Source: Candidatus Poribacteria bacterium
GTDB taxonomy: Bacteria > Poribacteria > WGA-4E > WGA-3G
Length of the DNA stretch: 64,000 bases
NCBI GenBank assembly: GCA_965208735.1
Contig: CBDBPM010000002.1
Coordinates: 2,985,961 to 3,049,960 of the forward strand
Direction of reading: 5' to 3'
The notes under the pieces are model-generated. The model did no database searches, was not told the origin of the DNA, and saw nothing but the letters and a program-made list of their open reading frames with translations. Made by a program: the position numbers and the translations under genes. Positions 18,855 through 31,727 of the stretch are shown one piece after another (positions within the stretch are counted from its first letter, which is position 1; the number at the start of each line of letters is the position of its first letter).

Positions 18855-19235
18855 CTACACCATCCACCGTTCGCCAATACCGAGCAGTGCCATCAATACT
18901 TGCAAAAGCACGCTCTCGGCATCAGGTCCGATAAACTGTCGATGTGTATCAATATAGGTGCCGTAATCGGCAGCCCATTCACGAAAATAGGTTTGATATT
19001 CCCAACCGTTAGCGGTGCGTTGGAAAATGGACCGATCCGGGTAGGGGAGTTTCTGTGTTAGGAGTTGCTGGAGTTGTTCGAGTGTCGGTATCCAAACGCC
19101 TTCGGTGTCTTCTGTTTCCGGACGGAGTGCCTGGATTTCAGAGTGCCGACATCTCTCCAAGTATTCTTGCGGATATTTCTGTTTCTCGGATTGATCCATA
19201 GGTTTGGATTGAGGACTTAATATCTCGTTTTTCAA
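18855..19235 (-). CDS. Hypothetical protein
   Basis: 126-aa ORF on the same strand as the neighbouring hypothetical gene. No recognisable motif. Confidence 0.4.
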   Translation of the reverse strand: MKNEILSPQSKPMDQSEKQKYPQEYLERCRHSEIQALRPETEDTEGVWIPTLEQLQQLLTQKLPYPDRSIFQRTANGWEYQTYFREWAADYGTYIDTHRQFIGPDAESVLLQVLMALLGIGERWMV

Positions 19236-19260
19236 GCCACCTGTGCTATACCTACTATGC

Positions 19261-19592
19261 TTATTCTTCGGTTTCTGTTGTTTCCGTGGAGGCGATAGGG
19301 ATATCTGGATTGAGGCGGGAGTGATGCATTGCCCAGTAGATAGCCGCTGTAATTACGCCGCCGATGAGGATTGCTATACCCCATATCGCAGGACCTGCTA
19401 TAATCAAAGTTCGTACGCGATCTAACCCAAAGTTCGTACGCGATCTAACCGAGCCGCGTCTCGGTAAACTGCTATAGCAAAGACGATTTTTATCAAGATT
19501 CCGAAAACTGTGGCAGCAATTCCCCAGACCACAGTCACCAGAGCCAATGTTATCAAAAAACCGGTATCTAAATCTGTAATGTCAAAATTCAT
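19261..19592 (-). pseudogene. Small membrane protein gene (~102 aa when repaired) frameshifted by a 23-bp tandem duplication
   Basis: Minus-strand ATG at 19592 with GGAG SD. Frame reads MNFDITDLDTGFLITLALVTVVWGIAATVFGILIKIVFAIAVYRDAARLDRVRTLG then a stop inside copy 2 of the repeat. Removing one 23-bp copy restores ...LDRVRTLIIAGPAIWGIAILIGGVITAAIYWAMHHSRLNPDIPIASTETTETEE, ending at the stop at 19261. Confidence 0.6.
19405..19450. repeat. Perfect 23-bp tandem direct duplication (CAAAGTTCGTACGCGATCTAACC x2)
   Basis: Read directly; 19405-19427 equals 19428-19450. Confidence 0.9.
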
Positions 19593-19945
19593 TTCACTTT
19601 CTCCGCGTTGGACTTGAAGGGTATTATACGGTGTGAACGCTTAATTGTCAACGTTTCTTGGGAGGGGTTTCAGAGGTATTCAGTTGTTGGTGATTCGCAG
19701 TCAATCACCTATTTCCATCGGAGTCATTTCTTTAGTCCCGTAGGGACGAAATGTTTATAGAAAAGGATTCTATCTATCTTTCAGCCCTGTAAGGGCGGCA
19801 TGTTTATATTATCTTGATTCTTCCGGTCAAATGTGCTATTATATGTTAAGGTTAATAGTGGCGGTGCTGATGGGAGACTTACCGTGTGTCTAACACTATA
19901 ACGCTATTTAACGCAACCCATTGTTATACATGAGGTGTTAATTCA

Positions 19946-22900
19946 ATGAATTTACAGGAATCTCAAGATAGTATCGGTAAATTAATGTTAAAGTTTGTAG
20001 ATGAAATTAGAGTTGCAACCGCAATGGGTAAAAGGGATATTAATTGTGTATCTGAAAATGTATTAATTCAATTGTTTTCCGAAATCTATGAACATACACA
20101 TTTAAAAAATTTAAATGTGTCCGAGGGGTCTAATTTTCCCGCAATAGATTTAGGCGATAAAAAAACGAGAACAGCTTACCAAATTACATCAACGCCTAAT
20201 TCCCGAAAGGTCAAACGGACTTTAGAAAAATTTGTTGCTCGTGAACTATACAAAGAATACGACCATCTTGTCATCTATATCTTGACAGAAAAACAAAGCA
20301 GATATCAATCAAAAAAAATTGACGAAATCGTAAATGGTAAATTCACTTTTGACAAAAAAAATGACATACTTGATTATAGCGACTTACTCAAAGAAATTTC
20401 AGGATTTTCTCTGGAAAAGACGCGCAGAGTAGAGCATATACTTGAGCAACATTTCGGTGAAGGGCAGATGGGTGACGAACCTCAGGATATATTGGATTGG
20501 TTAGAACAGGTTAATAACTTATGGAGTGAGGAATCAGGAACGATAAAAATTAATCGAGAAGAATTACACAATGACTTGCAGGACTTTGCCTCGCGAGGAA
20601 ACGGGGTAGTTATTGGAGGTCCAGGGGTCGGAAAAACATATTTACTTAAAGAACTCCATCAACACCTGAAGTCATCCGAAACACCGCATCTATTTTTGCC
20701 CATTGATCAACTTGGAGATGGCACTGCCGAAACCTTACGGCAAGAGTTATCTTACAAAGGTGACCTGATTGAAAAGTTGAAATCCGTTCCGGTATCAAAC
20801 GATAAATCAATTTTGCTGTTCGATGCCTTTGATGCAGCTCGAGATGAAGAGACGCGCAATCGCTTTTTAAAGTTAATACGGCGCGCAATCTATAAACTCA
20901 AAGAGTCATGGAATATTATCGTTACTGTTCGCACTTATGATGCCACGAAATCGCAAGAACTCTTAGATCTATTCAGCAATGTTGATAATATAGATCTATC
21001 CAAATACCAAACCGATGGAATTTTATGTCGCCATTTCACAATTCCACCGTTCAATAAGAACGAGATATTACAAGCATTAAGTCAAATTGGATGTCCAAAA
21101 TCTGTTTACGACGACGGCTCTGACGACTTTAAGAAAATCCTTGCAAAGCCGTTTAATCTCTGGTTATTGGAAAAAATTGTGCTGATAAAAAGAAAACAAG
21201 GAGATTCATCACAAGAAATTGTGCGTATTTTTAGCCAGATTCGTTCCGAAGTTCAGTTACTGGATCGGTTTTGGCAACGACGAATTGGAGATAAAAACAA
21301 GGCACGAATTCTACGGCAGATCTCACATCAAATGGTTAAGGAGCGTTCGTTGACTGTCAGGATAGATAAGATTGATAAGGATGTGAACCTTGATGAACCA
21401 GTTTTTGATAAACTCCAGAGTGATGAAATCTTAGCAAAGGTCTCTTCGACTGGACGACGGATTGCTTTTTCTCACAATATTCTCTTTGACTATGCAATTA
21501 GCGTCTTGCTCATTGATGATGAACCTCATCACCTTGAAGAGTTCATCCTTGAAGAACCGTCGCGTCCGCTTTTTCTACGACCAAGCCTCACCTATTTTTT
21601 CACTCGTCTCTGGTATTATGATGCTGAAAGTTTTTGGAAGGCTTTCTGGCACATTTTTCCGAGTGATCAATCTGTACATTTGCGTCTCGTCGCGCGCTTA
21701 ATTCCGACAAGCGTTATCGCAAATGAAGCCAGTACTGTTGACCAACTCACATCGCTTTTAGGGAAACTACAGAACGGAGACCCTGTCGCAAGCAAGACGA
21801 TGGCGAGACTTTTGCAGTCACTCCGAATGCTGGAAATTGAGCGTGACACACTTTGGATCGATTTTTTCGATCAAATTTCAGCACACTTACACAGTGACTT
21901 TGCTTGGGATTTAGCAACCCTCACTTCAGGTATTCTTGAGCGAGTACCAAAAACTGAAACATCTATCATAGACGCTTGTGGACGGATTGGCCGGCGGTTA
22001 CTTGAGTGGGTGTGGAAGGAAAGAGAAGTAAGAGAAAGCGATTGGTATGATCGGTTCGGTAGTTATGGTGCGGTGCCGCTTGTTGCCAAAACATATCACA
22101 CAAATATTGAAGAATCTCGTGTCCTTCTTGAAAAGGTTCTTGAGCTGCTATCGAGAAACAATTTTCCGATAGACTTTCCATCAAGGTTGACTGAACATGT
22201 TGACAAAATTTGGAAGCATGATCCTGAATTTGTTGCCTCGGTCTATAGAGCAGTATTTACCCACTACGAGCTCAGCGATGAAGAGGTACATCGAGGTGGA
22301 TTCATTTTACCATTTAGAAGTTTCCGCAGGCAAGATTATAGGATGTGCCAATATCGGTTGGGAAAGCATCTCCCTGATTTTCTTCGCGCAGCACGATTAA
22401 CTGCCGTGGATGCAGTAATTCGTAGTCTAAATAACTTCATTATCCACACACGTATAGATAAACCACTTGAGGGTTTCATAGAGACATTTAATTTTCGAGG
22501 AGAACTCGCTAGCTTTGTCCAAGACAGTAGTCATATATGGGATCGACAGAAAACTCCGCCTGAACCAATTAAACTTGCGAATGCCTTGTTTGACTACATA
22601 GTAGAATTGGCAAAGTTAGAAGATCCGCTTCTTGATTCAATTCTTGATGTTTTTCGTGATGAGGTGCGGATTGCGTTTTTCTGGAAACGGCTTTTGAAGA
22701 CAGCATCACAGTTTCCCAAAGTTTTCGCGCCACGCCTCTTTGAATTATGTGTCGCGAAACCAATACAGTCCCATTTTGAAGTCTCCTATGAATTTGGGAT
22801 ATTTTTAGAGGCCGCTGCGCCTGAATTTACGTCAAACCAACTTTGTCAGGTTGAAGAGAGCATCTTGGCAATTCCTGAAGAGACAGAGGATAATCAGGAA

Positions 22901-24580
22901 TCTCTTAAACTGCGGAGAAATCGTCTTCTTGCACAAATTCCCGCGGATTTGCTACGTACTGATGAGGCAAAGCAAATTCGGGAAGAAATGGAACGTGAAA
23001 ATAGTGTTCCAGTAAATCAACCTCCAGTGAGTGTTAGTGTCACATCTCAACCTTTTACTGAGGAAATGTGGTTTCAAGAACAAGGGATTGACACAACCAC
23101 ACCTGAAAATCAAGAATTACGTCGTTTTTCCGATCATCTCGATAAATTCAGTTCTGATTGGCGAAATGATATACCAACTCAGAAAGCCGCAGAATTGATT
23201 TTACCGCAATTACAGGAGGCATACACCGCCCTAAAGAGTAACAACACAATAGCCGATCAAGCGGTAATTGATTCGCTATGGCGTAAACTAACCGATTGTA
23301 TCGCAATTCTTGGTCGGATCGCTAATAATCTTGAAAGTGATTCCTTTACTTTTTGCCGTCAGGTGCTTTTAGAAGGGGTGGAACAACCTATACCTGATTT
23401 CTATTGTGATGAACAATTCGATTCTTCAGCTTATTCGCCATATCCACGACATGCAGCAGCCTCTGGGTTGCTTCGACTCTCGTTTCACCAACCAGGTCCG
23501 GAAATATTGGATGCAATCGAGAAACTTGCGAATGACCCGGTGCCATCTGTCCGGATGGTAACAGCGATGGAGTTGACCAATGTTTATGCCAAAGCTTCAG
23601 ATAGATTCTGGCATATCATGGACAGTAGGGCGGTAAATGAACCAAATCACGTCGTTCAAGAATATCTCTACTTTATATTAGATTATGTCGTCGCACATCG
23701 AAAAGAGAATGAAGCCAAAGTAACCCACGCTATGGAAAAACTGCTTGAACACACGCCCTCACCGCCGGGAAAACAAGGACTTTCAGATCCATTTGCCGAT
23801 TTGTTGATGTGGTTGGCAATTGAACGCGAGAATTCATGGGCATTGAAAACAATCCAAGATAGATTTTTCAAACAACCGATCCGGTTTGCTGACATCCTGA
23901 CCCGTATCGTGGATAAGGCCATGACAAATTACGTTGTCCCCAAGCACCTTGAAACATCTGATGGACGCGAAAGGACAAAACGCGCCGTTGAATGGGTAGG
24001 TAAAGCAATTACTGTAGCCTCTAATGGAGTTAAGGAGTTATGCACCACCCTTAAAAAGCATAGGGATGAGGAAATAGAGAAAGAGTTACATGACACCTAC
24101 ACAGTGATTGAGGGGGTTATCACGTGTCTTTACTATGAGGTTGCACATGAAAGAGAACAGTCTAATAAACCAAAGGAGGAGGTTTCCTATAGGTTGCACT
24201 GCCGTTTTTATAGTGAAGTTAAGCCACTAATGGAACAAGTCATCAATTTTGCACTCAACAAAGAACACGGTATAATGTTCGCACCGACAGCACACTATTT
24301 TATGCAAGTTCTAACCAGCTTTCTCAGTTGTGATCCCAAAGGTGTTTTGCATTTAGCAACCGGGGTTGTCCAGTCAAGCGAACCGTCCGGTTACAATCTC
24401 GATTCCATTGCGGTTCGTGATGTTGTTGAATTCGTTGAAATTGTGCTTGCTGATTATCGACATGAAGTGCGCGACGGTGAAGCCTTGGAAGACCTCTTGA
24501 ATCTGTTAGATCTTTTTGCTAAAATAGGTTGGTCGGATGCGATTAAACTCGTCTGGCGGCTTGATGAAGTTTTCCGCTAA
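19946..24580 (+). CDS. NACHT-type STAND P-loop NTPase (1544 aa) with an uncharacterised N-terminal domain of about 200 aa and a helical-repeat C-terminal region of about 1200 aa; candidate antiphage/conflict-system protein
   Basis: Walker A GGPGVGKTY. NACHT-type Walker B ILLFDAFDAARDEE (hhhhDxhDE) and sensor IIVTVRTYD (hhhTSR-like). Long alpha-helical ARM/HEAT/TPR-like C-terminus. N-terminal domain carries NFPAIDLGDKKTRTAYQITST. The gene is clearly more AT-rich than its flanks. Confidence 0.7.
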   Translation: MNLQESQDSIGKLMLKFVDEIRVATAMGKRDINCVSENVLIQLFSEIYEHTHLKNLNVSEGSNFPAIDLGDKKTRTAYQITSTPNSRKVKRTLEKFVARELYKEYDHLVIYILTEKQSRYQSKKIDEIVNGKFTFDKKNDILDYSDLLKEISGFSLEKTRRVEHILEQHFGEGQMGDEPQDILDWLEQVNNLWSEESGTIKINREELHNDLQDFASRGNGVVIGGPGVGKTYLLKELHQHLKSSETPHLFLPIDQLGDGTAETLRQELSYKGDLIEKLKSVPVSNDKSILLFDAFDAARDEETRNRFLKLIRRAIYKLKESWNIIVTVRTYDATKSQELLDLFSNVDNIDLSKYQTDGILCRHFTIPPFNKNEILQALSQIGCPKSVYDDGSDDFKKILAKPFNLWLLEKIVLIKRKQGDSSQEIVRIFSQIRSEVQLLDRFWQRRIGDKNKARILRQISHQMVKERSLTVRIDKIDKDVNLDEPVFDKLQSDEILAKVSSTGRRIAFSHNILFDYAISVLLIDDEPHHLEEFILEEPSRPLFLRPSLTYFFTRLWYYDAESFWKAFWHIFPSDQSVHLRLVARLIPTSVIANEASTVDQLTSLLGKLQNGDPVASKTMARLLQSLRMLEIERDTLWIDFFDQISAHLHSDFAWDLATLTSGILERVPKTETSIIDACGRIGRRLLEWVWKEREVRESDWYDRFGSYGAVPLVAKTYHTNIEESRVLLEKVLELLSRNNFPIDFPSRLTEHVDKIWKHDPEFVASVYRAVFTHYELSDEEVHRGGFILPFRSFRRQDYRMCQYRLGKHLPDFLRAARLTAVDAVIRSLNNFIIHTRIDKPLEGFIETFNFRGELASFVQDSSHIWDRQKTPPEPIKLANALFDYIVELAKLEDPLLDSILDVFRDEVRIAFFWKRLLKTASQFPKVFAPRLFELCVAKPIQSHFEVSYEFGIFLEAAAPEFTSNQLCQVEESILAIPEETEDNQESLKLRRNRLLAQIPADLLRTDEAKQIREEMERENSVPVNQPPVSVSVTSQPFTEEMWFQEQGIDTTTPENQELRRFSDHLDKFSSDWRNDIPTQKAAELILPQLQEAYTALKSNNTIADQAVIDSLWRKLTDCIAILGRIANNLESDSFTFCRQVLLEGVEQPIPDFYCDEQFDSSAYSPYPRHAAASGLLRLSFHQPGPEILDAIEKLANDPVPSVRMVTAMELTNVYAKASDRFWHIMDSRAVNEPNHVVQEYLYFILDYVVAHRKENEAKVTHAMEKLLEHTPSPPGKQGLSDPFADLLMWLAIERENSWALKTIQDRFFKQPIRFADILTRIVDKAMTNYVVPKHLETSDGRERTKRAVEWVGKAITVASNGVKELCTTLKKHRDEEIEKELHDTYTVIEGVITCLYYEVAHEREQSNKPKEEVSYRLHCRFYSEVKPLMEQVINFALNKEHGIMFAPTAHYFMQVLTSFLSCDPKGVLHLATGVVQSSEPSGYNLDSIAVRDVVEFVEIVLADYRHEVRDGEALEDLLNLLDLFAKIGWSDAIKLVWRLDEVFR

Positions 24581-24629
24581 GTTGGCTTACTTTTTCTTAA
24601 AAAAGACATTATTATATTGGAGCGTCTTT

Positions 24630-24836
24630 ATGCTTAATATCAATCCGAAATATATTGTTGATGACACAGGCGAAAAAACTGCTGCTGTCCTTACAATAAA
24701 AGAATATCATCTCCTCATAAAGCGTCTTGAGGACTTAGAGGACATTTTAGAGATGGATTCAGTTGTTGAAACTGCGACGGACTTTCGGGACTATCAAGAA
24801 ATTCGATCTGACTTAGAGAAAGAAGGAAAACTTTGA
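24630..24836 (+). CDS. Type II antitoxin, Phd/YefM-like
   Basis: 68-aa product MLNINPKYIVDDTGEKTAAVLTIKEYHLLIKRLEDLEDILEMD... fits the Phd/YefM pattern. ATG with GGAG SD. Its stop overlaps the start of the RelE-like gene. Confidence 0.5.
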   Translation: MLNINPKYIVDDTGEKTAAVLTIKEYHLLIKRLEDLEDILEMDSVVETATDFRDYQEIRSDLEKEGKL

Positions 24837-25105
24837 ACAGTTCGACGGTTTATACGGTGCAATTGGAGCGTCGTGCTGAGAGAGAAATTCGGAATCTACC
24901 GCAGCATGTCATCCGTCGTATTGATGCTATATTCCAACAATTGGAAAGTAATCCTCGGCCTCCTGGGGTTGTTAAACTTTCAGGACAGATAAGTGATAGT
25001 TGGCGACTACGTGTTGGGGCGTACCGAGTTCTCTATCGAATAGACGATGAAAATCATCGTGTCAGAATTTATCGAATCAAGCATCGTGGGAGAGTTTACC
25101 GTTGA
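24833..25105 (+). CDS. Type II toxin, RelE/ParE family
   Basis: 90 aa. ...YTVQLERRAEREIRNLPQHVIRRIDAIFQQLESNPRPPGVVKLSG...WRLRVGAYRVLYRIDDENHRVRIYRIKHRGRVY matches the RelE/ParE fold consensus. The 4-bp overlap with the upstream antitoxin suggests translational coupling. Confidence 0.65.
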   Translation: MNSSTVYTVQLERRAEREIRNLPQHVIRRIDAIFQQLESNPRPPGVVKLSGQISDSWRLRVGAYRVLYRIDDENHRVRIYRIKHRGRVYR

Positions 25106-25121
25106 CCAGAGGTTAGAGAAT

Positions 25122-26303
25122 ATGAAAATAACTGAAATTCAGAATGAGTTGGCAGCGTTAGACTTAGACGCGTGGCTCCTATACGATTTTCGTGGGATAA
25201 ACCCGATTGCACAGAACGTCGCAGGCTTAGCGGAGGCACACATTACCCGCCGATGGTTCTGCCTTATCCCTAAACACGGTGAGCCGCGATGGTTGGTCCA
25301 TCGGATTGAGACATCAAACTTCACCAACGTGCAAGGACAGGTGGCGCTTTACGCAGGATGGGAAGAACTTAATGAGGCGATCCGTACCCTGCTTACGGGT
25401 GTCAAAATGGTTGCGATGGAGTATTCACCAAACGCCGAAATTCCCTACATTTCACGGGTAGATGCCGGCACGCTGGAGTGGATCCGTTCGTTTGGGATTG
25501 AAGTGCAAACGTCTGCGGAACTTGCACAACGGGTAGAGGCACGTCTCAGCGATGCGCAAGCAGCAGGACATCAGACATCCGCACACTCGGTATTGCGAGC
25601 GAAAGATTACGCTTTTGCGTGGATCGGTTCGCAGCTGCGTGATAGGAAAACAATTACGGAATACGACGTACAGCAAGAGATTCTCGGACAATTTGATGCA
25701 ATGGATTTGGTTACAGATCACCCACCGATTGTCGCTGTAAATGCAAAGAGCAGCGACCCGCACTATGCACCCAGTGCAACGGATACCCAAGCGATTAAAG
25801 CAGGTGATTTCATTCTGATCGATTTATGGGCAAAGCAGAAAGACCCAGATGCGGTTTTTGCGGACACGACATGGGTGGCTTATGCCGGGGAAACCGTCCC
25901 TACGCGGTACGTTGAAATTTTCGATATCGTCAAGGAAGCGCGGGATAAAGCCATACGATTCATCCGAGAAAAATGGGCAGTCGATGCACCCATTCACGGT
26001 TATGAGGTGGATGATTGTGTCCGCGGGTATATCACTGAAAAGGGATACGGACAATTCTTCATTCACCGTACAGGACACAACATCGGCACTGTTATCCACG
26101 GGAACGGCGTGAATTTAGATAACTTAGAGACGCGGGATGCACGTGCCTTGATCTCTGGTGTCTGTTTCTCAATTGAGCCGGGTATCTACCTCACCGATTT
26201 CGGCGTGCGGACAGAAGTTGACGTTTTCTTAGCCGGTCCAGGGAGAGACGGCGTAAAAGTGACAACCGCTCCCGTTCAAAATCAGGTATTACCATTGCTG
26301 TAA
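25122..26303 (+). CDS. Xaa-Pro aminopeptidase / M24-family metallopeptidase (creatinase-like N-domain plus pita-bread fold)
   Basis: M24 metal-ligand context HRTGHNIGTVIHG and ...FSIEPGIY.... Start set at the ATG at 25122 (MKITEIQNELA) rather than the overlapping track start. Confidence 0.65.
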   Translation: MKITEIQNELAALDLDAWLLYDFRGINPIAQNVAGLAEAHITRRWFCLIPKHGEPRWLVHRIETSNFTNVQGQVALYAGWEELNEAIRTLLTGVKMVAMEYSPNAEIPYISRVDAGTLEWIRSFGIEVQTSAELAQRVEARLSDAQAAGHQTSAHSVLRAKDYAFAWIGSQLRDRKTITEYDVQQEILGQFDAMDLVTDHPPIVAVNAKSSDPHYAPSATDTQAIKAGDFILIDLWAKQKDPDAVFADTTWVAYAGETVPTRYVEIFDIVKEARDKAIRFIREKWAVDAPIHGYEVDDCVRGYITEKGYGQFFIHRTGHNIGTVIHGNGVNLDNLETRDARALISGVCFSIEPGIYLTDFGVRTEVDVFLAGPGRDGVKVTTAPVQNQVLPLL

Positions 26304-30074: not shown

Positions 30075-30488
30075 ATGAAATTAGAAACACCTATTTTAAC
30101 ATATCAAACGACGCGGTCTGCTACATACGCCTGTGAGTACCATATCATCTGGTGTACAAAATACAGAAGAAGTGTCTTGTCTTCTGAAATTCAACAACGA
30201 TTCAAAGAACTTGTAATAGAATCAGAAGAAAAACACGGATTTAAGGTTCGTGCTTTAGAGACAATGACAGACCACATACATTTGTTGATTAGCATTCCTC
30301 CAACTCAAGCCGTTGGTGTAATGATTGGCAAACTCAAAGGAATGACGGCTAAAGTTCTTCGTGAGGAGTTTCCGCACCTAAAATCAAGACTGCCGAACTT
30401 ATGGACACGTTGCTATTTTGTAGCGTCTACAGGGGGTGTAACACTACAAGTTCTAAAACAATATGTAGAAAACCAGAAAGGTGTCTAA
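30075..30488 (+). CDS. tnpA: IS200/IS605 Y1 (HUH) transposase TnpA
   Basis: 137 aa. HUH motif HIHLLISIPP and a conserved catalytic Tyr region. Confidence 0.85.
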   Translation: MKLETPILTYQTTRSATYACEYHIIWCTKYRRSVLSSEIQQRFKELVIESEEKHGFKVRALETMTDHIHLLISIPPTQAVGVMIGKLKGMTAKVLREEFPHLKSRLPNLWTRCYFVASTGGVTLQVLKQYVENQKGV

Positions 30489-31727
30489 ATGCCAAGTTTC
30501 TACCGCACCCAAACACTGAAAATAGAAGCACAACCGATATTCTCTGAAGCTCATGCTGCGTCTGCTGTTGTTTGGAACGACTGTTGCGATCAAATGAATA
30601 TGTACCAATGGCACCGTGGGTATTCTCATGCTCACAGAGACTTCTATTTCGGTAAAGACTGCGAAGACTGGATAGACCGAAAACTATCTAATCCACTCTT
30701 GCACTCACAGAGTAGGCAAGCGGTTCGGGAGCGTTACTTCAAGTCTTGGTTGTCCTACTCTGCTCTGAAAAAATCTGGTGGCGTTAGAAAGCCGAAACCT
30801 CCTAACAAACGAAAAAACTATATGACGACACGTTGGAAAAAGTCTGCCATTCGTTTAGTAGAAGGTAGGCTCTTTGGTAAACGCGTTGAACTTTCTATGG
30901 CACAGGGTCAACCGAAAATAGAGATACCTTTGCCCAACAACTTTGATATGTCTAAAGCAGAACATATCGCAACGATTGATTTGTGCTATAACTACGGACA
31001 ATGGACACTCCATTTTTCGTATTTGTATCACACCGAAACACCTGAAACAGGTAAAGAAGTTGTAGGCGTTGATATAGGCGAAATACACCCGATTGTCTCT
31101 CACGACGGTCAAGACACACATATCTACAATGGACGGTATATCCGCTCACTATACCGCTATAGAAATAAAGTGCTTGCCGAGTTCAGTCAGACGATCAGTC
31201 GTTGTAAACGCCATTCTAAACGCTGGTGGAGACTCACACGTCGGAAGTGGAAGCGTATTAGAAAGATTGATAACCAAATCAAAGACGCCCTCCACAAACA
31301 GACCACTAAATTCGTCAAATACTGCCAAGCGAAAGGTATTGGCACAATTGTGCTTGGAGACCTTACAGGTATCCGAAACACCATAGACTACAGCAAAAAG
31401 ACGAACCAGAAACTCCACCAATGGGCTTTCGGCAAGATTGCGGAGTTGATAACCTATAAAGCAAAAGCGTTAGGTATCAAAGTCAAAGTCATTGACGAAT
31501 CCTATACCTCTCAAACGTGCCCGAAATGTTGCAACCGAAAGAAACCTAACAACCGAAACTATACCTGCAAATGTGGTTTCAAGTATCATCGCGATGGTGT
31601 CGGTGCGATCAATATCAGAGAAAAGTATCTGGGTCACTTCGGTGTCCCCGTAGTGGCGGAAATGGGTTCTACCCGCATGACACCGCCCTTGGGCTTTCGC
31701 TTGGAAGTCCCTGTTGCCTCGTCTTAG
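30489..31727 (+). CDS. tnpB: TnpB (OrfB-family RNA-guided nuclease homologue; RuvC-like domain plus C-terminal zinc finger)
   Basis: 412 aa. RuvC-like ...IGTIVLGDLTGIRN..., and zinc finger CPKCCNRKKPNNRNYTCKCGFKYHRDGVGAINI. Confidence 0.85.
   Translation: MPSFYRTQTLKIEAQPIFSEAHAASAVVWNDCCDQMNMYQWHRGYSHAHRDFYFGKDCEDWIDRKLSNPLLHSQSRQAVRERYFKSWLSYSALKKSGGVRKPKPPNKRKNYMTTRWKKSAIRLVEGRLFGKRVELSMAQGQPKIEIPLPNNFDMSKAEHIATIDLCYNYGQWTLHFSYLYHTETPETGKEVVGVDIGEIHPIVSHDGQDTHIYNGRYIRSLYRYRNKVLAEFSQTISRCKRHSKRWWRLTRRKWKRIRKIDNQIKDALHKQTTKFVKYCQAKGIGTIVLGDLTGIRNTIDYSKKTNQKLHQWAFGKIAELITYKAKALGIKVKVIDESYTSQTCPKCCNRKKPNNRNYTCKCGFKYHRDGVGAINIREKYLGHFGVPVVAEMGSTRMTPPLGFRLEVPVASS

What the first reader, a model, noticed from the sequence alone, without database searches (positions are those of the whole stretch)
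19600..25105. AT-rich island carrying a 1544-aa NACHT-type STAND NTPase followed by a Phd/YefM-RelE pair: candidate single-protein antiphage or conflict system
The gene at 19946-24580 has a Walker A (GGPGVGKTY), a NACHT-style Walker B (ILLFDAFDAARDEE) and an hhhTSR-like sensor (IIVTVRTYD). A helical-repeat region of about 1200 aa follows. This is the domain organisation of bacterial NACHT/Avs-like defence NTPases, which carry an N-terminal effector or sensor domain and C-terminal repeats. The gene and the adjacent toxin-antitoxin pair are visibly more AT-rich than the flanking housekeeping genes, consistent with horizontal acquisition. On the left the island is bounded by a gene inactivated by a 23-bp duplication and by two unrecognisable genes. 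I cannot place the N-terminal domain or the C-terminal repeat region in a family I know, so the system may be undescribed.
Basis: partly seen in the sequence, partly recalled or inferred. Interest (0 to 1): 0.8.

Follow-up and report, generated by a model that had tools for sequence, protein, structure and literature searches.

The report
Nuclease-armed NLR-like immune sensor gene
This gene encodes an uncharacterised bacterial relative of animal NLR immune receptors, carrying a DNA-cutting domain, an ATP-driven switch and a large helical sensor; it sits in a defence-gene slot shared by many sponge-symbiont (Poribacteria) genomes and is most likely an anti-phage system of a known general type.

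Summary
ORF 19946-24580 (+) encodes 1544 aa with the quoted Walker A, Walker B and sensor-1 strings. GC falls to 0.41 (0.34 over the first 600 bp) against 0.47-0.48 in the flanks.

- aa 10-151 is a SMEK domain (Pfam E=5e-42). It also matches the solved Mrr nuclease domain of the Kordia short-Argonaute system (E=2.5e-29).
- aa 197-1544 matches PADLOC candidate PDC-M54A (E=2e-179).
- NACHT passes Pfam's threshold. The model of aa 1-620 matches Avs4 and human NLRPs. The model of aa 400-1544 (pLDDT 92) is a HEAT/ARM-like solenoid with no specific solved relative.

Homologues sit in defence contexts.
- SIR2 lies directly upstream in 60 of 75 loci, and a Type ISP restriction enzyme lies nearby in 37.
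- Other family members carry protease or phosphorylase effectors instead.
- About 24 Poribacteria genomes hold the system in the same slot (ASRT...M24 peptidase). NACHT divergence is uncoupled from flank divergence there.

The toxin-antitoxin pair is an independent neighbour: RelE/ParE toxin, RelB-like rather than Phd/YefM antitoxin. No PDC-M54B partner is present.

Verdict: a new, untested member of the known NLR-like antiphage class. Interest is moderate.

The parts
19946..24580 (+). SMEK-NACHT-solenoid gene (1544 aa), the sensor-effector protein.
   Evidence: ORF. An identical protein sits on a 6.05-Mb contig, and there are 507 close homologues. PADLOC PDC-M54A matches aa 197-1544 at E=2.4e-179.
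19973..20398 (+). N-terminal SMEK domain (aa 10-151), an Mrr-like PD-(D/E)xK nuclease and the predicted effector.
   Evidence: Pfam PF21941 E=5.4e-42 and NCBIfam NF033859. PDB 26bh_D, 'Mrr domain from Kordia jejudonensis Mrr-APAZ pAgo', matches aa 4-171 at E=2.5e-29. PADLOC Aga_REase model E=1.2e-60. E37 and D68 are invariant and Q79 is conserved in at least 85% of 65 SMEK-bearing homologues; K88 is invariant. All four are shared with the Kordia domain.
20606..21037 (+). NACHT nucleotide-binding domain (aa 221-364). Walker A is at 20615-20641, Walker B at 20810-20851 and the sensor-1 Arg at 20915-20941.
   Evidence: Pfam PF05729 scores 35.4 bits against a gathering threshold of 26.7. Key residues are invariant. 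Foldseek finds Avs4 8dgf at E=5e-11 and NLRP3/2/7/14 at TM 0.38-0.44.
21038..21745 (+). NACHT-associated helical and winged-helix region (about aa 365-600), including the invariant H510 in FSHNILFDYA (nt 21467-21496).
   Evidence: Secondary structure of the two models. H510, F514 and D515 are invariant. Assigning H510 as the NLR winged-helix histidine is an inference.
21746..24577 (+). C-terminal alpha-solenoid of about 945 aa, HEAT/ARM-like and non-periodic at sequence level. This is the predicted ligand sensor. It ends in the near-invariant tail LVWRLDEVFR.
19814..19842 (+). Candidate promoter TTGATT-17 nt-TATTAT with an upstream TG, about 100 nt before the ATG. The RBS GAGGTG lies at 19932-19937.
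   Evidence: Consensus scan. The block is conserved upstream of SMEK-NACHT genes in five other Poribacteria loci (alignment A4). Function is not shown.
19734..19808 (+). Two copies of a conserved 26-bp motif, AGYCCYRTARGGRCGRMATRTTTATA, at 19734-19759 and 19783-19808 just upstream of the promoter. This is either a possible operator or a dispersed repeat.
   Evidence: Two matches against 0 expected by chance. Conserved in related loci. The motif also occurs elsewhere in Poribacteria loci, in pairs with a period of about 50 bp on either strand.
24631..24836 (+). RelB-like antitoxin (68 aa from ATG 24631). It is a neighbour, not a component.
   Evidence: PF18506 E=4e-6. A homologue lies downstream of the NACHT gene in only 8 related loci.
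24833..25105 (+). RelE/ParE-superfamily toxin (90 aa), overlapping the antitoxin stop by 4 nt. It is a neighbour, not a component.
   Evidence: PF05016 E=2.3e-11; TIGR02385 scores 23.6 bits, below its cutoff. A homologue is present in only 2 related loci.
19232..19592 (-). Small membrane-protein gene disrupted by a 23-bp tandem duplication (19405-19450). It marks the left edge of the variable slot.

Best explanation
The gene most likely encodes a stand-alone NLR-like (NACHT-type STAND) immune receptor of a sponge-symbiont bacterium, apparently Candidatus Poribacteria.

Proposed mechanism:
1. In the resting state the protein is a monomer, held inactive by bound ADP through the NACHT and winged-helix module.
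2. The roughly 950-aa HEAT/ARM-like C-terminal solenoid binds a molecule that appears during infection by a phage or other mobile element. The trigger is probably a conserved phage protein, or a host factor altered by one.
3. Binding releases autoinhibition. ATP-dependent oligomerisation of the NACHT domains follows.
4. Oligomerisation brings the N-terminal SMEK (Mrr-like PD-(D/E)xK) nuclease domains together and switches them on.
5. The active nuclease degrades DNA indiscriminately, which stops the infection at the cost of the cell (abortive infection).

What is shown: the domain identities, motif conservation, fold, gene-neighbourhood associations and effector swapping. What is inferred by analogy with bNACHT25/32 and Avs proteins: the trigger, oligomerisation, nuclease activity and the protective phenotype.

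The adjacent RelB-like/RelE-ParE pair is a separate addiction or defence module that happens to lie in the same variable slot.

The window's locus is the minimal version of a defence slot between the ASRT gene cluster and the M24 peptidase gene. In sister genomes the slot also holds a Type ISP restriction enzyme. There the effector is often supplied in trans by an upstream, start-overlapping SIR2 gene instead of, or in addition to, the fused SMEK domain.
For: Domains.
- SMEK_N E=5e-42 and NACHT above the gathering threshold.
- Solved Mrr-domain homologue at E=2.5e-29.
- SMEK/Mrr is the nuclease effector of short-pAgo systems, where it shows collateral DNase activity (PMC10810196; PMC12205087; bioRxiv 10.1101/2023.06.08.544223).

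Fold.
- The model of aa 1-620 matches Avs4 and then human NLRP NACHT modules.
- The model of aa 400-1544 is a confident alpha-solenoid.

Conserved switch residues. Walker A, Walker B, R329 and H510 are invariant down to about 25% identity.

Effector modularity within one NACHT-plus-sensor family.
- Fused N-terminal domains include SMEK, Trypsin_2, PNP_UDP_1 and unknown domains.
- SIR2 is encoded directly upstream in 60 of 75 loci.
- The SMEK-fused and SMEK-less states are intermixed on a neighbour-joining tree, with at least 13 changes.

Defence context.
- A Type ISP restriction-modification gene lies adjacent in 37 loci.
- Type I and Type IIG restriction-modification genes and PbeA occur among the neighbours in 21 non-Poribacteria loci.
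- TA modules lie nearby.

Distribution and composition.
- The family is patchy across bacteria and archaea and also occurs on plasmids.
- The gene is lower in GC than its flanks in 76 of 76 loci.
- NACHT divergence is uncoupled from flank divergence (r=0.06, n=24).

Validated analogues. bNACHT25/32 combine a PD-(D/E)xK DNase, a NACHT module and a helical sensor. They protect against phage, and a nuclease-dead D48A mutant loses defence (PMC12169576; bioRxiv 10.1101/2022.07.19.500537).
Against: - No experiment exists for this protein or, as far as the searchable literature shows, for its family. 'PDC-M54' returned no papers.
- The SMEK active site lacks the canonical (D/E)xK lysine. It reads Q79-I-T81, and a conserved K88 may substitute, so catalytic competence is inferred. 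The Kordia SMEK system was reported to have only weak nuclease activity (PMC12205087).
- The system is unusually stable in position across Poribacteria, and its sequence is unusually conserved for a defence gene (59-77% among close homologues). A non-defence role is therefore not strictly excluded.
- The window copy lacks the restriction enzyme and the SIR2 gene found in the genome with the closest flanks (L038), so it could be a reduced version.
- The family is nearly absent from viral contigs, with one relative found. This is neutral evidence.
Confidence: 0.78

Rival explanations
1. The gene is a decaying remnant. The ancestral locus was Type ISP restriction enzyme plus SIR2 plus NACHT. The window genome lost the restriction enzyme and the SIR2 gene, and the remaining gene is non-functional or on its way to loss.
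For: The genome with the most similar flanks (L038, 80-96% identity) carries Type ISP, SIR2 and the SMEK-less form. The window has no trace of either gene. The neighbouring membrane-protein gene is frameshifted. Some relatives are pseudogenes (L045, L046, L064).
Against: The ORF is full length, with every invariant family residue intact. Fifteen of 20 SMEK-fused loci lack an upstream SIR2, so the stand-alone SMEK form is a recurrent and apparently viable architecture. The promoter and RBS block is conserved.
Confidence: 0.08
2. The protein is a non-immune STAND signalling protein, for example one that regulates a housekeeping or symbiosis process in Poribacteria. Its HEAT-like region would then be a eukaryote-like interaction domain.
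For: It occupies a conserved syntenic position in about 24 Poribacteria species genomes between core genes. Sequence conservation is high. Sponge symbionts are rich in eukaryote-like repeat proteins, such as the neighbouring LRR-cohesin-dockerin gene. Defence and non-defence STAND clades are interspersed (bioRxiv 10.64898/2026.01.04.697583).
Against: The family's effector set (Mrr-like nuclease, SIR2, trypsin-like protease, PNP-type phosphorylase) is typical of conflict systems. It is adjacent to restriction-modification genes. NACHT identity is uncoupled from flank identity. The family is spread patchily into archaea and onto plasmids.
Confidence: 0.07
3. The NACHT protein and the downstream toxin-antitoxin pair form one three-gene system. 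For example, the TA pair could be the executioner or a regulator of the NACHT sensor.
For: The genes are immediately adjacent on the same strand and share low GC. An antitoxin homologue recurs downstream of the NACHT gene in 8 Poribacteria loci.
Against: Only 8 of about 80 loci have the antitoxin and only 2 have the toxin, and several of these matches are short fragments. The closest NACHT homologue (L002, 77% identity) has no TA pair. The NACHT protein already carries its own effector. The TA genes appear to have their own RBS and start, 50 nt after the NACHT stop.
Confidence: 0.04

Closest known systems
bNACHT25 / bNACHT32 (bacterial NLR-related proteins, clade 6; Kibby et al. 2022-23; PMC12169576)
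   Same: Both have the same three-part logic: an N-terminal PD-(D/E)xK (Mrr-like) DNase effector, a central NACHT module and a C-terminal all-helical sensor in one polypeptide. The bNACHT proteins are experimentally antiphage, with nuclease-dependent DNA degradation on activation.
   Different: The sensor here is about 950 aa and HEAT/ARM-like, not the NCH1 domain. The effector is specifically of the SMEK subtype. Sister genes place the effector in trans as a separate SIR2 gene, whereas bNACHT genes were reported to be rarely in operons.
PADLOC candidate system PDC-M54 (A + B)
   Same: aa 197-1544 (NACHT plus sensor) align end to end with the PDC-M54A profile at E=2.4e-179. This is the same NTPase-sensor family as the Rhizobium pRLG202 gene.
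   Different: Bona fide PDC-M54A has a different N-terminal domain of about 300 aa, seen in P0269 and the Rhizobium protein. It is also followed by an overlapping 481-aa PDC-M54B gene. No PDC-M54B homologue exists in the window or in 84 related loci. PDC-M54 is itself only a computational candidate, and no paper was found.
Avs (antiviral STAND) proteins, especially Avs4 (Mrr-like nuclease + STAND + TPR sensor; PDB 8dgf)
   Same: Avs4 is the best structural match for aa 1-620, at E=5e-11. The effector-NTPase-sensor design is the same, and the expected mode of action is pattern recognition followed by oligomerisation.
   Different: The Avs4 HMM gives only a weak local hit (E=1.6e-5, aa 187-330). 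The NTPase here is of the NACHT type. The sensor is unrelated to any solved Avs sensor.
SPARMA / SMEK-APAZ short-pAgo system of Kordia jejudonensis
   Same: The effector domain is homologous, at E=2.5e-29 over aa 4-171, with shared E, D, Q and K positions.
   Different: The sensor there is a guide-loaded short Argonaute-APAZ complex, not a NACHT-solenoid. Only the effector module is shared.
Avs5 / SIR2-STAND and other SIR2 defence effectors (ThsA, LmuA-SIR2, DSR)
   Same: Sister loci pair the same NACHT-sensor with a SIR2 protein that hits the ThsA and LmuA SIR2 models. EfAvs5 appears among the structural matches.
   Different: In the sister loci SIR2 is a separate upstream gene rather than a fusion. 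The window itself has no SIR2 gene.

Membership tests
NACHT / STAND NTPase (Pfam PF05729) | Profile score above the curated gathering threshold | tested here: met
   35.4 bits against a threshold of 26.7, aa 221-364, E=1.2e-8.
NACHT / STAND NTPase (Pfam PF05729) | Walker A (GxxxxGK[ST]), Walker B with a second acidic residue three positions on (hhhhD-x-x-D), and a sensor-1 arginine | tested here: met
   G224-K230-T231, D293/D296 and R329 are present and invariant in alignments reaching about 25% identity.
NACHT / STAND NTPase (Pfam PF05729) | NOD-module fold (nucleotide-binding domain, helical domain, winged helix) resembling solved NLRs | tested here: met
   Model with pLDDT 85.5. Foldseek finds Avs4 at E=5e-11 and NLRP3/2/7/14 at TMq 0.38-0.44 over 430-500 columns.
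NACHT / STAND NTPase (Pfam PF05729) | Winged-helix histidine contacting ADP, and ATP-dependent oligomerisation | not testable with these tools
   H510 is invariant and lies at the end of a predicted winged-helix hairpin. Its role and oligomerisation need biochemistry.
SMEK_N / Mrr-like PD-(D/E)xK nuclease | Profile and solved-structure homology | tested here: met
   PF21941 E=5.4e-42 and NF033859 E=8e-21. PDB 26bh_D E=2.5e-29.
SMEK_N / Mrr-like PD-(D/E)xK nuclease | Complete catalytic constellation (E...D...(D/E/Q)xK) and nuclease activity | tested here: inconclusive
   E37 and D68 are invariant, Q79 is conserved in at least 85% of sequences and K88 is invariant; all are shared with the Kordia domain. 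The third motif reads Q-I-T, so the lysine would have to come from K88. Activity was not tested.
PADLOC PDC-M54 (candidate two-gene system) | A-component profile match | tested here: met
   PDLC04700 E=2.4e-179, but only profile positions 298-1657. The N-terminal 297 positions are not matched.
PADLOC PDC-M54 (candidate two-gene system) | Adjacent B component (about 480 aa, overlapping the A stop) | tested here: not met
   The true pair is seen in Rhizobium pRLG202. No PDC-M54B hit occurs among the window neighbours, and tblastn finds none in the window or in 84 loci.
Avs1-4 families | Family HMM match over the NTPase and sensor | tested here: not met
   Only Avs4 at E=1.6e-5 over aa 187-330. 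The sensor matches no solved Avs sensor.
Defence-island gene (guilt by association) | Recurrent neighbourhood with known defence genes across unrelated genomes | tested here: met
   A Type ISP restriction-modification gene lies adjacent in 37 loci and SIR2 in 60 of 75. Type I and IIG restriction-modification genes, PbeA and mad2 occur among 117 neighbours in 21 non-Poribacteria loci. No formal background rate was computed.
   The toxin is met (PF05016, 44.5 bits against 23). The antitoxin scores 13.2 bits for Phd/YefM against a cutoff of 29.8, and fits RelB-like PF18506 instead at 26.9 bits against 27.

The most novel reading that the evidence does not exclude
The NACHT-plus-solenoid module seen here may define a large, unstudied pattern-recognition receptor family. 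It comprises about 1,900 clusters at 50% identity across bacteria and archaea and is near-ubiquitous in Poribacteria. Its effector can be supplied in cis (SMEK nuclease, protease, phosphorylase) or in trans, by a start-overlapping (probably translationally coupled) SIR2 gene. On this reading a bacterial NLR can activate a separately encoded NADase, and the family recognises a trigger not covered by the known Avs and bNACHT sensors. In Poribacteria it would be a vertically fixed 'core' immune locus whose alleles are exchanged between species.
Probability: 0.45. Interest if true: 0.55.

Novelty: new member of a known kind. Interest (0 to 1): 0.4.

Why it matters
If confirmed, this would add an uncharacterised and very widespread sensor family to the bacterial NLR/Avs repertoire. 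Its sensor, a roughly 950-aa HEAT-like solenoid, has no solved relative and an unknown trigger.

The family also offers a natural set of cis and trans effector variants for studying how a NACHT switch couples to different effectors: a fused SMEK nuclease, a separate SIR2 gene, and both together.

It further suggests that sponge-symbiont Poribacteria keep a phylum-wide, positionally fixed defence slot (restriction enzyme plus NLR-like sensor), which bears on phage pressure in sponge holobionts.

It does not change the general picture, because nuclease-NACHT-helical-sensor antiphage proteins are already established.

Tried and rejected
- Literature. 'PDC-M54' and 'Mrr-APAZ' returned no papers. 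A broad 'SMEK domain / NACHT' search returned only irrelevant NLR papers.
- Rfam on 19200-25300 found nothing, so the conserved upstream motif is not a known RNA family.
- NCBIfam HyoA, PADLOC Avs4 and PADLOC mad8 hits are weak local P-loop-region matches (E=1.6e-5 to 4.5e-5), and I rejected them as family assignments.
- Remnants of SIR2 or the Type ISP enzyme were sought in the window by tblastn at E<=1. None were found.
- A PDC-M54B partner was sought in the window and in 84 loci. None was found.
- The idea that the GC dip marks a recent insertion was rejected, because the gene is lower in GC than its flanks in every one of 76 loci and the slot is syntenic across species.
- The idea that the TA pair is a system component was rejected for lack of co-conservation.
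- The neighbour survey used a crude longest-ORF gene caller, which produces spurious ORFs in high-GC loci, so the PADLOC neighbour counts are approximate.


Full report
**1. Observation**

The ORF at 19946-24580 (+) encodes 1544 aa, as stated. The three motif strings are present:
- Walker A, GGPGVGKTY, aa 224-232.
- Walker B, ILLFDAFDAARDEE, aa 289-302.
- Sensor 1, IIVTVRTYD, aa 324-332.

Their key residues (G224/G227/G229/K230, D293/D296/R299, R329/D332) are invariant in alignments of 28-52 relatives that reach about 25% identity.

GC falls to 0.34-0.45 between about 19.5 and 25.0 kb, against about 0.49-0.51 on both sides. The gene is 0.413 GC, its first 600 bp are 0.338, the TA pair is 0.419 and the flanks are 0.47-0.48.

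The 23-bp tandem duplication (CAAAGTTCGTACGCGATCTAACC twice, 19405-19450) is real. Removing one copy restores a 102-aa membrane-protein ORF, and that ORF is intact in seven related genomes.

Start-codon corrections:
- The antitoxin most likely begins at ATG 24631 (GGAG 7 nt upstream).
- The M24 peptidase begins at ATG 25123. This gives 393 aa, matching the orthologues in L001 and L002.

**2. What the protein is**

N-terminal domain. Pfam places aa 10-151 in SMEK_N (PF21941, E=5.4e-42), and NCBIfam agrees (NF033859). The same region (aa 4-171) matches the solved 'Mrr domain from Kordia jejudonensis Mrr-APAZ pAgo' (PDB 26bh, E=2.5e-29) and a PADLOC Argonaute-associated REase model (E=1.2e-60). 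SMEK is described in the literature as the Mrr-like PD-(D/E)xK nuclease effector of a branch of short-pAgo systems. The Kordia complex shows weak collateral DNase activity (PMC10810196; bioRxiv 10.1101/2023.06.08.544223; PMC12205087). E37, D68 and K88 are invariant and Q79 is conserved in at least 85% of the 65 SMEK-bearing close homologues. All four are shared with the Kordia domain. The third catalytic motif reads Q-I-T rather than (D/E/Q)-x-K, so catalytic competence is an inference.

NACHT module. aa 221-364 pass Pfam's NACHT gathering threshold (35.4 bits against 26.7). An AlphaFold model of aa 1-620 (pLDDT 85.5) has Avs4 as its best solved match (8dgf, E=5e-11). Next come the NACHT modules of human NLRP14/2/3/7 (TMq 0.38-0.44), then Avs3 and EfAvs5.

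**3. The family and its contexts**

Close homologues. The word-indexed search found 507 homologues. The top 120 are all at least 59% identical and fall into two architectures:
- about 1545 aa with SMEK (65 proteins);
- about 1345 aa without SMEK (55 proteins).

Family size. An exhaustive HMMER scan with aa 400-1544 found 1927 clusters at 50% identity (794 at E<=1e-30). Most are about 1330-1350 aa, which means no fused effector. Longer members carry other N-terminal domains: Trypsin_2, PNP_UDP_1, a helical domain and unknown domains. P0269 (1634 aa) is the true full-length PDC-M54A type.

Taxonomic spread. A scan of one genome per species returned 79 loci. Most are Candidatus Poribacteria and Latescibacterota MAGs, at 55-68% identity. 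More distant relatives (32-48%) occur in Thermodesulfovibrionales, Desulfobacteraceae, Blastocatellia, Terriglobia, Vicinamibacterales, Clostridia, Bacteriovorax, Actinomycetota, and the archaea Methanosarcina, Methanofollis and Methanomicrobiales. Still more distant relatives (22-24% identity) sit on Rhizobium, Agrobacterium and Streptomyces plasmids, and SMEK alone is fused to a TPR protein in Herpetosiphon. Only one relative was found in viral contigs.

Neighbours.
- In 60 of 75 loci with a callable upstream gene, that gene is a SIR2 homologue on the same strand, usually overlapping the NACHT start by 10-37 nt.
- The SIR2 protein hits the ThsA and LmuA SIR2 models.
- Five SMEK-fused genes also have SIR2 upstream (L008, L018, L025, L040, L042). 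Fifteen, like the window, do not.
- A Type ISP restriction-modification gene lies just upstream in 37 loci.
- Among 117 neighbours of 21 non-Poribacteria loci, PADLOC finds Type I and Type IIG restriction-modification components, PbeA and mad2.

On a neighbour-joining tree of the NACHT-plus-sensor part, the SMEK-fused and SMEK-less forms are intermixed, with at least 13 state changes. The tree is crude and carries no support values. All this is the effector-swapping pattern described for bacterial NACHT and Avs proteins.

**4. The locus in Poribacteria**

About 24 species-level genomes carry the system in the same slot as the window. On the left lie ASRT, a 126-aa gene and the small membrane protein. 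On the right lie M24 peptidase, a 283-aa gene, AP_endonuc_2, an HflX-like GTPase and SmpB.

Identity of the NACHT-sensor part to the window copy stays at 62-75%, whatever the flank identity (75-90%). The correlation is r=0.06 for n=24. The genome with the closest flanks (L038) has the SIR2-plus-SMEK-less configuration. The closest NACHT homologue (L002, Candidatus Poribacteria, GCA_026706025.1) has the SMEK fusion plus the Type ISP enzyme.

The NACHT gene is lower in GC than its flanks in 76 of 76 loci, by 6 points on average.

The 'island' is therefore a long-lived variable defence slot with allele turnover, not a recent insertion. The window holds its smallest version. It has no Type ISP and no SIR2 gene, and no remnants of either. 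It does have a TA pair, which recurs in only a few sister loci: the antitoxin in 8 and the toxin in 2.

**5. Relation to PDC-M54**

In Rhizobium leguminosarum pRLG202, a 1619-aa PDC-M54A gene is followed by an overlapping 481-aa PDC-M54B gene. No PDC-M54B homologue exists in the window or in any of the 84 other loci, and the window protein does not match the first 297 positions of the A profile. The window protein thus shares the NTPase-sensor module of PDC-M54A. It belongs to a different sub-architecture (SMEK in cis and/or SIR2 in trans), and PADLOC's two-gene rule would not call it.

**6. Mechanism**

By analogy with bNACHT25/32 and with Avs proteins, I propose the following steps. bNACHT25/32 combine a PD-(D/E)xK DNase, a NACHT module and a helical sensor. 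Their defence needs the nuclease, and DNA is degraded on activation (PMC12169576).
1. The solenoid binds an infection-derived ligand.
2. The NACHT module exchanges ADP for ATP and oligomerises.
3. The clustered SMEK nuclease domains cut DNA, aborting the infection.

Domains, motifs, fold and context are shown here. The trigger, oligomerisation, nuclease activity and phenotype are inferred. Confidence in a defence role of this type is about 0.78.

Rivals:
- Decaying remnant, 0.08.
- Non-immune STAND signalling protein, 0.07.
- Combined NACHT-TA system, 0.04.

**7. Novelty and score**

The architecture and logic are established, and both 'unplaceable' regions are catalogued (Pfam SMEK_N; PADLOC PDC-M54A). 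I found no publication on this family. Its sensor has no solved relative. Its cis/trans effector variants and its fixed position in Poribacteria are not, to my knowledge, described.

I rate it a new member of a known kind, with interest 0.4.

Noticed in passing
window 19734-19759 and 19783-19808 (+); also L002 7485/7535 (+) and 12708/12756 (-); L005 9770/9822 (+) and 14689/14741 (-); clusters in L040 2305-2496 and L067 17522-17846: A 26-bp motif, AGYCCYRTARGGRCGRMATRTTTATA, contains the palindrome CCCGTAGGG. It occurs as pairs with a period of about 50 bp. In the window the pair lies just upstream of the conserved SMEK-NACHT promoter. In L002 and L005 an inverted pair also lies 50-130 bp past the NACHT stop, so the gene is bracketed. 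Elsewhere the motif forms clusters unrelated to NACHT. It could be an operator, a REP/MITE-like dispersed repeat or a cassette boundary.
   Followed up: partly
window 30075-31727 (+), within the second GC dip at about 29.75-30.5 kb: An IS200/IS605-type element is inserted between the HflX-like GTPase gene and smpB: a Y1 transposase TnpA (PF01797, E=2e-39) plus TnpB (OrfB_IS605 and Cas12f1-like TNB domains). It is absent from the syntenic loci L001 and L002.
   Followed up: partly
window 19405-19450 (within the minus-strand gene 19232-19592): A 23-bp perfect tandem duplication frameshifts a small conserved membrane-protein gene that is intact in seven related genomes. A perfect consensus promoter, TTGACA-17-TATAAT, at 19651-19623 (-) still faces it.
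   Followed up: yes
window 13385-18034 (+): A 1549-aa protein with a cytochrome-c-like N-terminus, leucine-rich repeats, two cohesin domains, a dockerin and a FlgD_ig-like C-terminal domain (PF13860). It is a eukaryote-like repeat protein typical of sponge symbionts and is conserved in L002 and L003.
   Followed up: no
loci L013, L025, L028 and L070 (all from MAG CAZURU01): One metagenome-assembled genome carries four paralogues of the NACHT-sensor gene, two SMEK-fused and two SMEK-less with SIR2. This suggests lineage-specific expansion.
   Followed up: no
L064 10001-16006; L045; L046: Some Poribacteria copies are disrupted. In L064 the match spans 6.0 kb instead of 4.65 kb, which suggests an insertion of about 1.3 kb. 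L045 and L046 have premature stops or frameshifts.
   Followed up: no
L008, L018, L025, L040, L042: Five loci combine an upstream SIR2 gene with a SMEK-fused NACHT gene. These are potential dual-effector (NADase plus nuclease) versions of the system.
   Followed up: partly
window 24537/24631 and 25047/25123: The mechanical ORF starts are too far upstream. The antitoxin probably starts at 24631, and the M24 peptidase at 25123 (393 aa, as in its orthologues). Neither gene then overlaps its upstream neighbour.
   Followed up: yes
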